From an uncultured Candidatus Saccharibacteria bacterium (GTDB lineage Bacteria > Patescibacteriota > Minisyncoccia > Phycocordibacterales > UBA12088): 64,000 nucleotides of DNA. A program made the translations under genes and the position numbers. Shown here piece after piece: positions 56,138 to 58,055 of the stretch. The notes under the pieces are model-generated. The model had not been told where the DNA came from, did no database searches, and saw nothing but the letters and a program-made list of their open reading frames with translations. The DNA lies in the NCBI GenBank assembly GCA_964635195.1, contig CAZWNC010000001.1:1312-65311 (forward strand), written 5' to 3'. Each line of letters begins with the position of its first letter. Within the stretch, counting starts at the first letter, position 1.

Positions 56138-56197
56138 GTGTGCTATTTGAGCATCGGCACAAGATGTAGTAAGATACTGTGGTACCCGTAGAAGGGT

Positions 56198-56273
56198 GCC
56201 GAGATAGCTCAGTCGGTAGAGCACCCCCATGGTAAGGGGGAGGTCCCGAGTTCGATCCTCGGTCTCGGCTCCA
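56198..56273 (+). tRNA. tRNA-Thr (anticodon GGU), CCA encoded
   Basis: Cloverleaf GCCGAGA/TCTCGGC acceptor, D-arm GCTC-AGTCGGTA-GAGC, anticodon loop aTGGTaa, T-arm CCGAG-TTCGATC-CTCGG. Confidence 0.8.
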
Positions 56274-56430
56274 AGAGCGAGAGAGCAGCGTGCCTGCGCA
56301 CGCTGTGTCGAGGATAGAAAGGCGCAACCATCGACTTGCTATACGCGAGGAGAGGCGAGCCGGGGTCGAGAGCACTTGGTTATTGAGGAACCGCCTCAGG
56401 CGGAGATGAAATAACCTAGTGACTCGTGAC

Positions 56431-56453
56431 CGATCCTCGGTCTCGGCTCCAAG
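56431..56453 (+). repeat. 23-bp exact direct repeat of tRNA-Thr 3' end (CGATCCTCGGTCTCGGCTCCAAG), 178 bp downstream of first copy (56253-56275)
   Basis: Direct sequence comparison. att-core-like partial tRNA duplication. Confidence 0.8.
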
Positions 56454-56522
56454 GAGACGCGCGTGCGTCTAGGATGTACAGTATAAATACTTGTAGGTAT
56501 ACTGTAATACGTGTGTGACCGT

Positions 56523-56595
56523 GCCGCCTTAGCTCAGTCGGTAGAGCAATGCATTCGTAACGCATAGGTCCCCAGTTCGATCCTGGGAGGCGGCT
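56523..56595 (+). tRNA. tRNA-Thr (anticodon CGU), no encoded CCA
   Basis: GCCGCCT/AGGCGGC acceptor, identical D-arm, anticodon loop tTCGTaa (A-C mismatch at stem base), T-arm CCCAG-TTCGATC-CTGGG. Confidence 0.7.
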
Positions 56596-56672
56596 CACAA
56601 ACAGGGTGCGTGAAAAAGTCGCGAGAGTGGCGGTAGTCATTAATGATTCGCTGTTGAATCAAGAAACGTTTT

Positions 56673-57047
56673 TTGTACAAGGACGTACTTTTTTTGTATC
56701 CACAAAGTCCGACAGCGCATCATGTAAAGCGATACTTTGGACAAAGGCCACGTCTTGCGAATATGGTCGTGTGTGCTAACGTATCTCATGGGTTCAAGAT
56801 CTTTCACGCTTTCTCTGTCAGAGGAGTCACTCGCATGCTTGCTACAATTCCCGCAAAAGGGGTTGTGAATGAGAATTGCCCATTGTGCATTTCAGCCGGT
56901 GGCAAACTTACACATCTGACGTATTGCATCAATGGTCCCGTTTTGAAATGTGACACCTGCCACTGTCGTTTTTTCCCGAAAAAGAAATTCTTTGGACTTA
57001 TACATTTCTACGAAATGGGCATCCATTTTTCTGACCTCAGGTCTTAG
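56673..57047 (+). CDS. Possible small Zn-ribbon protein (CPLC...CDTCHC); true start uncertain
   Basis: ORF in the tRNA-proximal gap. Competes with a minus ORF 56892..57473. Weak. Confidence 0.25.
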   Translation: MYKDVLFLYPQSPTAHHVKRYFGQRPRLANMVVCANVSHGFKIFHAFSVRGVTRMLATIPAKGVVNENCPLCISAGGKLTHLTYCINGPVLKCDTCHCRFFPKKKFFGLIHFYEMGIHFSDLRS

Positions 57048-57158
57048 TGTTCCCGCGAATACAGAAGTTCCTAACCGCCCACTCGCATTTGGTTGTGAGG
57101 GGCGGTTTTTCATAGCATCTGGATTAACGTATGGTATGACATAGGCATTGAAGGTTTC

Positions 57159-58055
57159 TTGCGGTATAGTATTTGCATGGCCGACCCGGACGCTACACAA
57201 CGCATTGCTGACATCGAGGCCTCGATGTGTTTGCCCGATTTTTGGAAAGACCCAAAACGGGCGCAAGAATTGATCGCGGAACTGCAAGATCTGAAGACTG
57301 TGGCGGAAGGTGGTACTCCATACGATAAATGCCGTGCAATCGTCGCGATTTATGCGGGCGCTGGCGGTGATGATGCGGAGGACTTTGCCGGCATGCTTTT
57401 TCGCATGTACCAAAAACTGTGCGAACGCAAGGGTTGGGCATGGCACCTGCTCCATGATCACGAGAATGACCATGGAGGGTTTCGCAATCTGGCGTTTGAG
57501 ATCGAGGCCAAAGGGTCATACGGTGCTGTGCGGGGTGAGTATGGAGTACATCGACTGGTACGCATTTCTCCCTTTAATGCGAATGCCAAACGTCAAACAT
57601 CCTTCGTGCTCGTGGAGGTCTTGCCGGTCATTGAAAAACACAAACTTGATATTCCGGAGAGTGATCTCGAGATTTCGTTTGCGCGGTCGTCCGGCCCGGG
57701 TGGGCAAAACGTCAATAAGCGCGAGACTGCGGTCCGCATGACTCATCGTCCGACGGGTGTTTCCGTCCACTGTCACGGTGAGCGCACGCAGGAGGCGAAC
57801 AGGGAGAAAGCGCTTGCATTCATTGAAGCGAAGTTGCTGCATCGCATGGAAGAAGAACATAAGGGAACCCTCGCGGAATTAACGATAGATCCGGGTAAAA
57901 TAGAGTGGGGAAGCCAGATGCGTTCGTACGTTCTTCACCCCTATCAGATGGTCAAAGACCACCGCACTGGGGTGGAGACAAGTAACACCGAAGGCGTGCT
58001 CGAGAAAGGTGAATTGGATGAGTTTCTTGAAACAGGGACATCACTTTCACAGTAA
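57159..58055 (+). CDS. prfB: Peptide chain release factor 2 (short N-terminal domain; likely start ATG 57177)
   Basis: SPF tripeptide (RISPFNANAKRQTSF), GGQ (SSGPGGQNVNK). No in-frame upstream extension or CTT-TGA frameshift site. Confidence 0.85.
   Translation: MRYSICMADPDATQRIADIEASMCLPDFWKDPKRAQELIAELQDLKTVAEGGTPYDKCRAIVAIYAGAGGDDAEDFAGMLFRMYQKLCERKGWAWHLLHDHENDHGGFRNLAFEIEAKGSYGAVRGEYGVHRLVRISPFNANAKRQTSFVLVEVLPVIEKHKLDIPESDLEISFARSSGPGGQNVNKRETAVRMTHRPTGVSVHCHGERTQEANREKALAFIEAKLLHRMEEEHKGTLAELTIDPGKIEWGSQMRSYVLHPYQMVKDHRTGVETSNTEGVLEKGELDEFLETGTSLSQ

What the first reader, a model, noticed from the sequence alone, without database searches (positions are those of the whole stretch)
56198..56595. 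Tandem tRNA-Thr genes with a 23-bp exact duplication of the first tRNA's 3' end (att-like scar)
tRNA-Thr(GGU) at 56198-56273 is followed 178 bp later by a perfect 23-bp copy of its T-arm/acceptor/CCA segment (56431-56453), then by tRNA-Thr(CGU). Partial 3' tRNA duplications are the footprint of site-specific integration at tRNA genes (attL/attR cores), but here the intervening DNA is only about 160 bp and contains GC-rich hairpins. This may be a remnant of an excised or degraded integrative element, or a structured RNA inserted at an att site. The downstream region (56600-57160) contains only poorly supported small ORFs, consistent with a decayed island.
Basis: partly seen in the sequence, partly recalled or inferred. 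Interest (0 to 1): 0.55.

Follow-up and report, generated by a model that had tools for sequence, protein, structure and literature searches.

The report
Tiny hairpin element inserted in tRNA-Thr
The 23-base repeat marks the two ends of a 178-base, gene-less, hairpin-rich insertion that sits inside the tail of a tRNA gene while keeping the tRNA intact. It belongs to a large, apparently undescribed family of such mini-elements found behind tRNA genes of nearly every type in Patescibacteria.

Summary
In detail: tRNA-Thr(GGU), an exact 23-nt copy of its 3' end 178 nt downstream, then tRNA-Thr(CGU).

The DNA between the repeats is not a scar of a decayed island. It is an intact member (covariance model 100.8 bits) of a conserved family. 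A 21-nt core motif hit more than 120 metagenome contigs.

Copies lie just downstream of tRNAs of 18 amino-acid identities, of tmRNA genes, and once inside a protein gene's 3' end. They often form tandem pile-ups.

Each unit has four parts:
- a replacement copy of tRNA positions 56-73;
- usually a terminator-like hairpin;
- an inverted copy of that tRNA end;
- an invariant three-way-junction core, supported by covariation.

The displaced original 3' end forms the second repeat. Two relatives have the same Thr-Thr locus empty.

No protein gene is linked to the element, no Rfam family matches it, and four literature searches found no description.

Best reading: a cargo-less, site-specific integrative mini-element mobilised in trans. 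It possibly acts as folded single-stranded DNA, because its loops are GNA triloops rather than GNRA tetraloops. The enzyme and the RNA-versus-DNA question remain open.

The parts
56198..56273 (+). tRNA-Thr(GGU), intact, with encoded CCA. Its last 21 nt are the left repeat.
   Evidence: ARAGORN; Rfam tRNA 67.1 bits.
56253..56430 (+). The 178-bp inserted unit. It can equally be placed at 56276-56453, because the repeat makes the frame ambiguous. It is absent from the orthologous Thr(GGU)-Thr(CGU) locus of two relatives.
   Evidence: Alignment A2 with L083 and L002; tRNA spacing 100 nt and 43 nt there against 249 nt here.
56253..56275 (+). Copy A (H'): tRNA positions 56-76 plus 2 nt, the functional 3' end of the tRNA. 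Under the model it is supplied by the element.
   Evidence: Exact repeat. In related loci the inverted arm matches copy A, not copy B, whenever the two differ.
56276..56285 (+). Anti-acceptor segment (AGCGAGAGAG), an imperfect complement of the acceptor 3' strand TCTCGGCT.
   Evidence: Read from the sequence; paired in the MFE fold. The same layout is seen in L120 and in L161 unit b.
56286..56305 (+). P0 hairpin CAGCGTGC-CTGC-GCACGCTG. Its CTGC loop is the commonest loop of this hairpin across the family.
   Evidence: the CTGC loop is the commonest of the hairpins found upstream of the core (17 of 102 contexts).
56308..56317 (+). arm5 (anti-T segment TCGAGGATAG), the inverted copy of tRNA positions 56-65, with one mismatch and one G-T pair.
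   Evidence: helix 1 of the family structure is 71% paired with 11 of 13 pairs changing on both sides.
56318..56363 (+). AAA linker, the P2 arm (GGC...GCC base with a conserved G-S-A / G-A internal loop and a variable tip) and a GG linker.
   Evidence: Alignment A1 invariant columns; RNAalifold and pair counts show P2 pairs with 7-26 double-sided changes.
56364..56430 (+). P3 arm: invariant GGTCGAGAG.ACTT ... TAGT.ACTCGTGAC with an invariant G-T pair, and a variable tip (here CCGCC-TCA-GGCGG). The element's right end is GTGAC followed by C.
   Evidence: 98% of cells paired; ACTTAG/CTTAGT covaries with the window's ACTTGG/CCTAGT; CM hit 56296-56452, 100.8 bits, E = 9e-30.
56431..56453 (+). Copy B: the displaced, non-functional original 3' end of the tRNA gene (right repeat).
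   Evidence: Exact repeat. In some related loci copy B differs from the live tRNA end by substitutions, small insertions or truncation.
56456..56469 (+). GC hairpin GACGC-GCGT-GCGTC after copy B, probably the original trailer hairpin of the tRNA gene.
   Evidence: Its role is inferred.
56523..56596 (+). tRNA-Thr(CGU), a neighbour that is not part of the element. It has its own promoter-like box at 56475-56503.

Best explanation
The repeat brackets one copy of a cargo-less, non-coding, site-specific mini-element of about 180 nt.

SHOWN
- The unit is inserted between T55 and C56 of the T-loop of tRNA-Thr(GGU).
- From left to right it holds: (i) a replacement copy of tRNA 56-76, so the tRNA stays intact; (ii) an anti-acceptor segment, a hairpin with a CTGC loop, and an inverted copy of the T-arm 3' part; (iii) an invariant core with two hairpin arms (P2, P3) that ends in GTGAC.
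- The original 3' end of the gene is pushed downstream and remains as the second repeat.
- The same architecture recurs behind tRNAs of 18 amino-acid identities and behind tmRNA genes in Patescibacteria, often stacked in tandem.
- A sister subtype inserts at the very 3' end of tRNAs. It is 95-96% identical over its core at different tRNAs, and in the printed sequences the match runs on through its left module, which indicates recent movement.
- No protein gene travels with the element.

INFERRED
- The unit moves as an excised, probably circular and probably single-stranded form.
- In that form the replacement 3' end pairs with its inverted copy, so the molecule folds into a three-armed structure.
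- An enzyme encoded elsewhere joins the GTGAC|C junction of this form to GGTT|C of a naive tRNA gene. The candidate I favour is a tyrosine recombinase acting on folded single-stranded DNA, as with CTX-phage attP or integron attC. A rolling-circle (HUH) enzyme is the main alternative.
- Repeated insertion at the live tRNA gives the tandem arrays.
For: Insertion and empty sites
- The Thr(GGU)-Thr(CGU)-RF2 arrangement is conserved. The spacer is 43 nt in L002 and 100 nt in L083, against 249 nt in the window.

Family
- nhmmer found two relatives in L012 behind tRNA-Thr(UGU) and tRNA-Leu(CAA).
- In 73 of 123 contexts a same-strand tRNA ends 67-160 nt upstream of the motif.
- In most of these an exact 15-25-nt copy of the tRNA end, starting at C56, follows the core.
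- tmRNA and protein-gene targets were also seen.

Structure
- On alignment A1, 86.5% of cells pair against about 35% when partners are slid.
- There are 176 double-sided changes against 70 in shuffles, with 0 of 500 shuffles reaching the observed value.

Covariance model
- Window: one hit of 100.8 bits.
- Patescibacterial loci chosen without reference to the element: 4 hits among 31 tRNA genes.
- 633 kb of non-Patescibacteria loci: 0 hits.
- 100 motif-selected loci: 134 hits, up to 4 per 10 kb.

Composition of the unit
- The inverted arm pairs better with the live tRNA end than with the displaced copy in 9 of 11 informative cases, and never the reverse.

Mobility
- L141 (Arg-CCG) against L185 (Lys-CTT), and L164 against L178, are 95-96% identical over the core. 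In the printed sequences the identity runs on through the left module, with unrelated flanks.
- Tandem arrays of distinct units each begin with the tRNA end.

No cargo
- No protein family is enriched within about 3 kb of the elements.

Leaning towards single-stranded DNA
- 46 of 95 hairpin loops are triloops, mostly C(GNA)G, and none is GNRA or UUCG.
- G-U pairs are only 3.7% of pairs, with no strand bias in the variable stems.
- Canonical terminators separate the tRNA from the core in many copies, with no room for a promoter.
Against: - No recombinase, transposase or Rep gene is linked to any copy. None resembling XerD, lambda Int or IS608 TnpA is in the window. The enzyme is therefore pure inference.
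- No excised or circular form has been observed.
- T-loop-type units carry an 18-nt tRNA-specific end plus its inverted copy. Yet cores 85-88% identical sit at different tRNAs. How both arms are re-made on a change of target is unexplained. Gene conversion between resident copies could mimic mobility for this subtype.
- The invariant G-T pair and conserved mismatches in P3 show that one strand matters. An RNA would satisfy this equally well.
- In the window no terminator separates the tRNA from the core, so this copy could be co-transcribed with the tRNA.
- The loop and G-U statistics are suggestive only.
Confidence: 0.6

Rival explanations
1. The element is primarily an RNA gene. On this reading the core plus the tRNA-end copy is transcribed by read-through from the tRNA promoter. 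It folds into a tRNA-like acceptor/T minihelix (inverted arm paired with copy B) carrying P0, P2 and P3. It is trimmed by tRNA-processing enzymes and then acts as an RNA: a new ribozyme, a guide or antisense to the tRNA 3' end, or a protein scaffold. Any mobility would be secondary or RNA-mediated.
For: - The fold is strong and strand-specific, with covariation and an invariant G-U pair.
- The anti-acceptor / hairpin / anti-T order places the side hairpin where the tRNA body leaves the acceptor-T stack.
- In the window there is no terminator between the tRNA and the core.
- The core is invariant across very distant hosts.
Against: - Many copies have a canonical terminator with a T-run between the tRNA and the core, and no space for a promoter.
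- Where the two copies differ, the inverted arm follows copy A rather than copy B. The proposed minihelix with copy B therefore does not look like the maintained pairing.
- Loops are GNA triloops with no GNRA or UUCG, and G-U pairs are rare.
- No Rfam family, including every known self-cleaving ribozyme and group I intron, matches at E <= 10.
Confidence: 0.25
2. The element is a non-autonomous derivative of a single-strand, rolling-circle or 'peel-and-paste' transposon of the IS91/Helitron or IS200/IS605 kind. An HUH enzyme acting in trans nicks after G-N-N-C (GTTC in the T-loop, GACC at the element's right end) next to hairpins.
For: - If the shared C is assigned to the left side, insertion sites read GTTC| (T-loop), GTGC| or GCGC| (3'-end subtype), and the right end reads GACC|. 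From my own knowledge, IS91 inserts 3' of GTTC or CTTG.
- The element has a subterminal hairpin at its right end, DNA-type loops, no inverted terminal repeats and no fixed-length target duplication.
Against: - No HUH or TnpA-like gene was found in the loci by tblastn with IS608 TnpA or by neighbour clustering.
- These transposon families are not known to carry a replacement copy of the target gene's end.
- The G-N-N-C reading depends on an arbitrary assignment of one base.
Confidence: 0.15
3. The insert is a scar of a once large prophage or genomic island that has been almost wholly deleted.
For: Direct repeats of a tRNA 3' end are the classical footprint of islands, and tyrosine recombinase genes occur near tRNAs in some related loci.
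Against: - The insert is a full-length, high-scoring member of a family of constant size and architecture at dozens of different tRNAs.
- No copy examined has cargo between the repeats.
- Independent deletions would not converge on the same 150-nt conserved core.
Confidence: 0.03
4. The second repeat is a tRNA fragment pseudogene left by tandem duplication of tRNA-Thr.
For: The two tRNA-Thr genes are adjacent and 72% identical over 98 nt, including their promoter boxes.
Against: - The fragment matches tRNA-Thr(GGU) exactly but tRNA-Thr(CGU) at only 70%.
- It starts precisely at C56, as in more than 40 other loci.
- It is preceded by the conserved core.
Confidence: 0.02

Closest known systems
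Integrative elements at tRNA/tmRNA genes (temperate phages, ICEs, genomic islands using tyrosine integrases). From my own knowledge, Williams (2002) described sublocation classes at the anticodon loop, the T-loop and the extreme 3' end.
   Same: Insertion in the T-loop or at the extreme 3' end of tRNA and tmRNA genes. The element carries a replacement 3' end, the original end is displaced as a direct repeat, relatives have empty sites, and repeated use of one gene gives tandem arrays.
   Different: The element is only about 180 nt, with no integrase and no cargo in any copy examined. It has an inverted copy of the tRNA end and a covarying hairpin core, which are not features of lambda-type attP. 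One family covers nearly all tRNA identities.
Folded single-stranded DNA recombination sites: the CTX-phage attP(+) hairpin (XerCD) and integron attC sites (IntI)
   Same: Only an analogy. An inverted repeat folds one strand into a duplex copy of the chromosomal target. The order after integration (site, loop, inverted site, rest of the element, site) matches copy A, hairpin, arm5, core, copy B. The sequence is variable while the structure is conserved.
   Different: There is no dif-like or R/L-box sequence, and no IntI or phage genes. The crossover lies at the base of the hairpin next to a three-way junction. Not tested biochemically. The comparison rests on my knowledge of those systems.
MITEs and other non-autonomous mini-elements (IS200/IS605-derived PATEs, REPINs)
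   Same: Short, non-coding, multi-copy and hairpin-rich, presumably mobilised in trans.
   Different: There are no terminal inverted repeats of fixed sequence and no fixed target duplication. Targeting of one position in tRNA genes is strict. The element rebuilds the target gene's end.
Group I introns in Patescibacteria tRNA genes (PMC13011429)
   Same: Small, protein-less, structured insertions in tRNA genes of the same phylum.
   Different: Those introns interrupt the anticodon loop (position 35/36 in the newly found cases) and self-splice. Here the tRNA is uninterrupted, the insert lies after a complete 3' end, and Rfam's intron models do not match.
Tycheposons of Prochlorococcus (bioRxiv 10.1101/2020.12.28.424599; characterised from my own knowledge, the paper was listed but not read)
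   Same: tRNA-gene-targeting elements that leave partial tRNA repeats and stack in arrays in streamlined genomes.
   Different: They are kilobases long and encode recombinases and cargo. No conserved hairpin core is known for them.

Membership tests
tRNA-gene integrative element (integrase type) | Direct repeats of the tRNA 3' part flank the inserted DNA, and the tRNA remains intact | tested here: met
   Exact 23-nt repeat and intact tRNA.
tRNA-gene integrative element (integrase type) | Empty site in related genomes | tested here: met
   L002 and L083 have Thr(GGU)-Thr(CGU) without the insert.
tRNA-gene integrative element (integrase type) | The element encodes its own integrase next to one att site | tested here: not met
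   The insert is 157 nt with no ORF. No recombinase is linked in about 120 related loci.
tRNA-gene integrative element (integrase type) | Crossover within a short identical overlap flanked by inverted recombinase-binding sites | tested here: inconclusive
   Identity starts at C56. The first 4-5 nt of some copy B sequences follow the element subfamily (CTAG in L090 and L120) or carry 1-2-nt insertions. This fits a 5-7-nt overlap but does not prove one.
MITE / non-autonomous IS | Terminal inverted repeats of family-specific sequence and a fixed-length target duplication | tested here: not met
   The inverted arm varies with the target tRNA. The repeat length runs from 3-4 nt (3'-end subtype) through 19-25 nt to 60 nt or more in L138.
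MITE / non-autonomous IS | Short, non-coding, and present in many copies per genome | tested here: met
   134 CM hits in 100 loci, up to 4 per 10 kb; 4 of 31 tRNA genes in unbiased loci.
IS200/IS605 or IS91 single-strand transposons | HUH transposase (TnpA or Rep) in the element or the genome | tested here: inconclusive
   There was no tblastn hit to IS608 TnpA in the window or in about 200 loci. Whole genomes were not available.
Known RNA families (Rfam 15: group I/II introns, self-cleaving ribozymes, tmRNA, tRNA-like RNAs, riboswitches) | Covariance-model match | tested here: not met
   Only tRNA, tmRNA and chance-level matches at E <= 10 for the window region and E <= 1 for nine related loci.
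Folded-ssDNA att sites (attC / CTX attP) | Recombination of one folded strand by a tyrosine recombinase | not testable with these tools
   Only indirect hints: DNA-type GNA triloops, few G-T pairs and the order of the parts.
tRNA pseudogene from tandem duplication | The fragment derives from the neighbouring paralogue, without foreign sequence | tested here: not met
   The fragment is preceded by the conserved core and is only 70% identical to the tRNA-Thr(CGU) end.

The most novel reading that the evidence does not exclude
These units could be the smallest class of site-specific mobile elements yet seen. On this reading they are about 180 nt, protein-free, viroid-like circles of single-stranded DNA or RNA that fold into a three-armed structure. 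The structure displays a duplex copy of their own target, the tRNA T-arm/acceptor end. They would integrate into tRNA and tmRNA genes either by their own catalysis (a new ribozyme or DNAzyme-like core) or by hijacking a housekeeping enzyme such as Xer, a topoisomerase or tRNA-processing enzymes. They could spread between ultra-small bacteria through natural DNA uptake.
Probability: 0.2. Interest if true: 0.92.

Novelty: new variant of a known kind. Interest (0 to 1): 0.75.

Why it matters
Patescibacteria have tiny genomes, yet in loci chosen without reference to the element roughly one tRNA gene in eight carries one of these units. Some tRNAs carry stacks of them.

If they are mobile, they form a cargo-less parasite of tRNA genes that solves the 'do not kill the host gene' problem in under 200 nt. 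They would then define a minimal substrate for a still unidentified recombination machinery, with possible use as a compact, programmable insertion module.

If they are RNA genes, they are a new, abundant, tRNA-linked structured RNA class in a phylum where most biology is unknown.

There are practical consequences too. The units create repeats of tRNA ends and long palindromes. These could break assemblies, mislead island finders that rely on tRNA-fragment repeats, and produce false 'att scars'.

Tried and rejected
- Exact-protein look-ups of the flanking MacB permease, of P0001 (the database entry 100% identical to the window's RF2) and of the RF2 homologue P0011 found no contig.
- The genome-contig scan with RF2 returned mostly distant phyla, the closest at 66% identity. 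I used these as CM test sets and negative controls rather than as orthologues.
- Acceptor-stem idea: I paired GCCGGGG in the core with the repeat to make a tRNA-like acceptor stem. This was rejected because the pairing is not kept in L012.
- Known ribozymes and introns: hammerhead, hairpin, HDV, twister, pistol, hatchet, and group I or II introns. No Rfam match was found, and my manual comparison of junction strands does not fit a hammerhead.
- Guide-RNA models (TnpB/IscB omega RNA, IS110 bridge RNA, CAST homing spacer) were rejected as stated. No linked effector is present. A nuclease guided by the tRNA end would also cut the occupied allele. The arms are helices, not internal-loop guides.
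- Mature-tRNA (retro) origin of the repeat: copies do not carry CCA unless the gene encodes it, and they often extend 1-6 nt into the trailer.
- The anti-acceptor segment as a copy of the tRNA's 5' strand: in L120 it is the exact complement of the 3' strand, not the real 5' strand, which has a wobble.
- Search for a helper gene: neighbour clustering found only housekeeping genes. XerD-like genes lie kilobases away in 5 loci and none is in the window. The recombinase in L092 sits behind a different, intron-bearing tRNA.
- Virus and phage links: one viral-contig scan and one phage BLAST found nothing.
- Four literature searches found no description. A fifth call (52) was rejected for a malformed search term.
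- A second copy of the tRNA-Thr(CGU) end downstream of tRNA2 was sought and not found.

Full report
THE OBSERVATION

The window holds exactly two tRNA genes: tRNA-Thr(GGU) at 56198-56273 and tRNA-Thr(CGU) at 56523-56596 (Rfam tRNA 67 and 63 bits). The 23-mer CGATCCTCGGTCTCGGCTCCAAG occurs at 56253-56275 and again at 56431-56453 without a mismatch. It runs from C56 of the T-loop to the encoded CCA plus two bases. By my arithmetic a chance 23-mer repeat in 64 kb is expected about 3e-5 times. The DNA between the copies folds far better than shuffled controls (-93.4 against -71.1 +/- 4.4 kcal/mol, z = -5.1).

HOST AND EMPTY SITES

The flanking genes are a MacB-type efflux operon upstream and RF2, FtsE, FtsX and CTP synthase downstream. 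RF2 homologues place the window in Patescibacteria (Paceibacteria-like).

Two relatives were recovered through RF2. L002 has 87% RF2 identity and L083 has 81%. Both carry the same Thr(GGU)-Thr(CGU)-RF2 arrangement, with only 43 and 100 nt between the tRNAs and no second copy of the 3' end (alignment A2). More distant Patescibacteria also show the Thr-Thr pair 15-21 nt apart (L005, L009, L010). The window therefore carries a 178-bp insertion at this locus.

THE INSERT BELONGS TO A LARGE FAMILY

An nhmmer search of the loci already in hand found two related stretches in L012, a Paceibacterota MAG with 53% RF2 identity. One lies behind tRNA-Thr(UGU) and one behind tRNA-Leu(CAA). Each ends in a near copy of a tRNA 3' end.

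A 21-nt motif shared by the window and L012, GAGCCGGGGTCGAGAGNACTT, was then scanned:
- It hit no viral contig.
- In 73 of 123 contexts a same-strand tRNA ends 67-160 nt upstream of the motif.
- In most of these an exact 15-25-nt copy of the tRNA end, beginning at C56, follows the core.

Targets cover 18 amino-acid identities. They also include tmRNA genes (L098 and L156; L163 and L181). One copy lies in the 3' end of a protein gene, with a duplication of at least 60 nt (L138).

A covariance model built from 49 copies gave these results:

| Search set | Result |
|---|---|
| Window | 1 hit, 56296-56452, 100.8 bits, E = 9e-30 |
| Patescibacterial loci chosen through RF2, not the element | 4 hits (L012 twice, L010, L006) among 31 tRNA genes |
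| 633 kb of cyanobacterial, Chloroflexi and actinobacterial loci | 0 hits |
| 100 motif-selected loci | 134 hits, up to 4 per 10 kb |

ANATOMY

Alignment A1 shows three invariant blocks: GAAAGGCG[C/G]AG, GAGCCGGGGTCGAGAG.ACTT and TAGT.ACTCGTGAC. These are separated by two hairpin tips of free sequence and length.

RNAalifold and explicit pair counts support two arms, P2 and P3. P3 has an invariant G-T pair and conserved mismatches. They also support a third helix between the segment upstream of the core (arm5) and the tRNA-end copy. Overall, 86.5% of cells pair, against about 35% when partners are slid. There are 176 double-sided changes against 70 in shuffles, and 0 of 500 shuffles reach the observed value.

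Upstream of arm5, most copies have a terminator-like hairpin. Many also have a hairpin with a CTGC loop flanked by an anti-acceptor and an anti-T segment. The window has this layout:
- anti-acceptor at 56276-56285;
- CTGC hairpin at 56286-56305;
- arm5 at 56308-56317;
- P2 at 56321-56361;
- P3 at 56364-56430.

WHAT BELONGS TO THE ELEMENT

Where the live tRNA end (copy A) and the downstream copy (copy B) differ, arm5 pairs better with copy A in 9 of 11 cases and never better with copy B.

In the subtype that inserts between positions 71 and 72 of tRNAs (right flank 'CAC...'), the core is 95-96% identical at different tRNAs with unrelated flanks. The pairs are L141 Arg-CCG against L185 Lys-CTT, and L164 against L178. 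The printed sequences show that this identity runs on through the short tRNA end, the terminator and the inverted arm.

The unit is therefore [replacement tRNA end - hairpin(s) - inverted arm - core]. Copy B is the displaced original end.

Tandem arrays of two or three distinct units, each starting with the tRNA end, lie behind single tRNAs (L148, L152, L161 and others). This is what repeated insertion at the live gene would produce.

WHAT IT IS NOT

- It matches no Rfam family, including introns and all known self-cleaving ribozymes.
- It is not the group I intron type recently described in Patescibacteria tRNAs, which sits in the anticodon loop (PMC13011429).
- It is not a decayed island. 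Size and architecture are constant, and no copy examined has cargo.
- It is not a fragment of the neighbouring tRNA-Thr(CGU), which is only 70% identical.

MECHANISM

Shown: site-specific insertion that preserves the tRNA, absence of any linked gene, recurrence at nearly all tRNA types, recent movement of the 3'-end subtype, and stacking.

Inferred: the moving form and the enzyme.

I favour a single-stranded DNA form for three reasons:
- The hairpin loops are mostly C(GNA)G triloops, with no GNRA or UUCG tetraloops. From my own knowledge, the former are hallmarks of stable DNA mini-hairpins and the latter of RNAs.
- G-U pairs are rare (3.7%) and show no strand bias in the variable stems.
- Many copies have a canonical terminator between the tRNA and the core, with no room for a promoter.

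If the unit were circularised, it would fold into a three-armed molecule whose long arm is a duplex copy of the target (tRNA 56-73). This resembles the logic of CTX-phage attP and integron attC. On that analogy a tyrosine recombinase supplied in trans is my first candidate. XerD-like genes exist in these genomes but are not linked to the element. An HUH rolling-circle enzyme is the second candidate.

The main gap concerns the T-loop subtype. I cannot explain how both the 18-nt tRNA-specific end and its inverted copy are renewed when the target changes. Cores 85-88% identical occur at different tRNAs. That could reflect retargeting or gene conversion among resident copies.

An RNA function remains a serious rival at about 0.25. 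In the window copy nothing terminates transcription between the tRNA and the core.

NOVELTY

The closest known things are integrase-borne tRNA and tmRNA islands. They share target sublocations, a replacement 3' end, a displaced repeat and arrays. A 180-nt, cargo-less, hairpin-core version that covers nearly all tRNA types was not found in Rfam or in four full-text searches. I rate it a new variant of a known kind, with about a one-in-five chance of being something more radical: a protein-free, viroid-like integrative element.

Noticed in passing
window 56597-57176: About 580 nt separate tRNA-Thr(CGU) from RF2 here, against about 50 nt in L001 and L002. The extra DNA holds an ORF preceded by GAGGAG (56835-57047, 70 aa, CxxC...CxxC zinc-ribbon-like, no Pfam match) and a terminator-like hairpin ending in TTTTT near 57075-57110. 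No copy of the tRNA-Thr(CGU) end flanks it.
   Followed up: partly
window 56160-56197 and 56475-56522: Each tRNA-Thr gene has its own conserved upstream box (GATGTAGTAAGATACTGTGG and CTTGTAGGTATACTGTAATACG). The box is also conserved in L083 and L002 and looks like an extended -10 promoter typical of these genomes.
   Followed up: partly
L001 1-40: The contig of the closest relative (RF2 88%) begins with GAAAGGCGGAGCCATGCACC, which matches the 5' core block of the family. It then runs straight into the tRNA-Thr(CGU) promoter, and the CM does not score it. This may be a truncated or rearranged element at an assembly break.
   Followed up: no
L184 200-400, L196 910-1110; L122 6960-7100, L164 1080-1210 (oriented coordinates): At least two further core families have the same architecture but different sequence: CGAAGCTCCGGAGC...GGCCGCAATTCCGGGA|CGAGTCC, and GGATTCGAACCGAAGG...GACCGAAGGGAGAGG|CGAATCC. 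They are stacked with the main family behind the same tRNAs.
   Followed up: partly
L092 1230-1760 (minus strand): A tRNA with a long insertion after the anticodon loop (probably a group I intron) is preceded by a duplicated 5' half. A 310-aa tyrosine recombinase gene follows immediately, about 650 nt downstream of a mini-element at tRNA-Asp.
   Followed up: partly
L008 3054-3990: In this relative the Thr(GGU) and Thr(CGU) genes are 935 nt apart, against 15-100 nt elsewhere. The CM gives no hit there, so a different insertion occupies the same spacer.
   Followed up: no
L138 120-400 (oriented): One family member sits in the 3' end of a protein-coding gene, at a CGAAGAC site that resembles a T-loop. 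It duplicates at least 60 nt up to the stop codon. Targeting is therefore not strictly limited to tRNA genes.
   Followed up: partly
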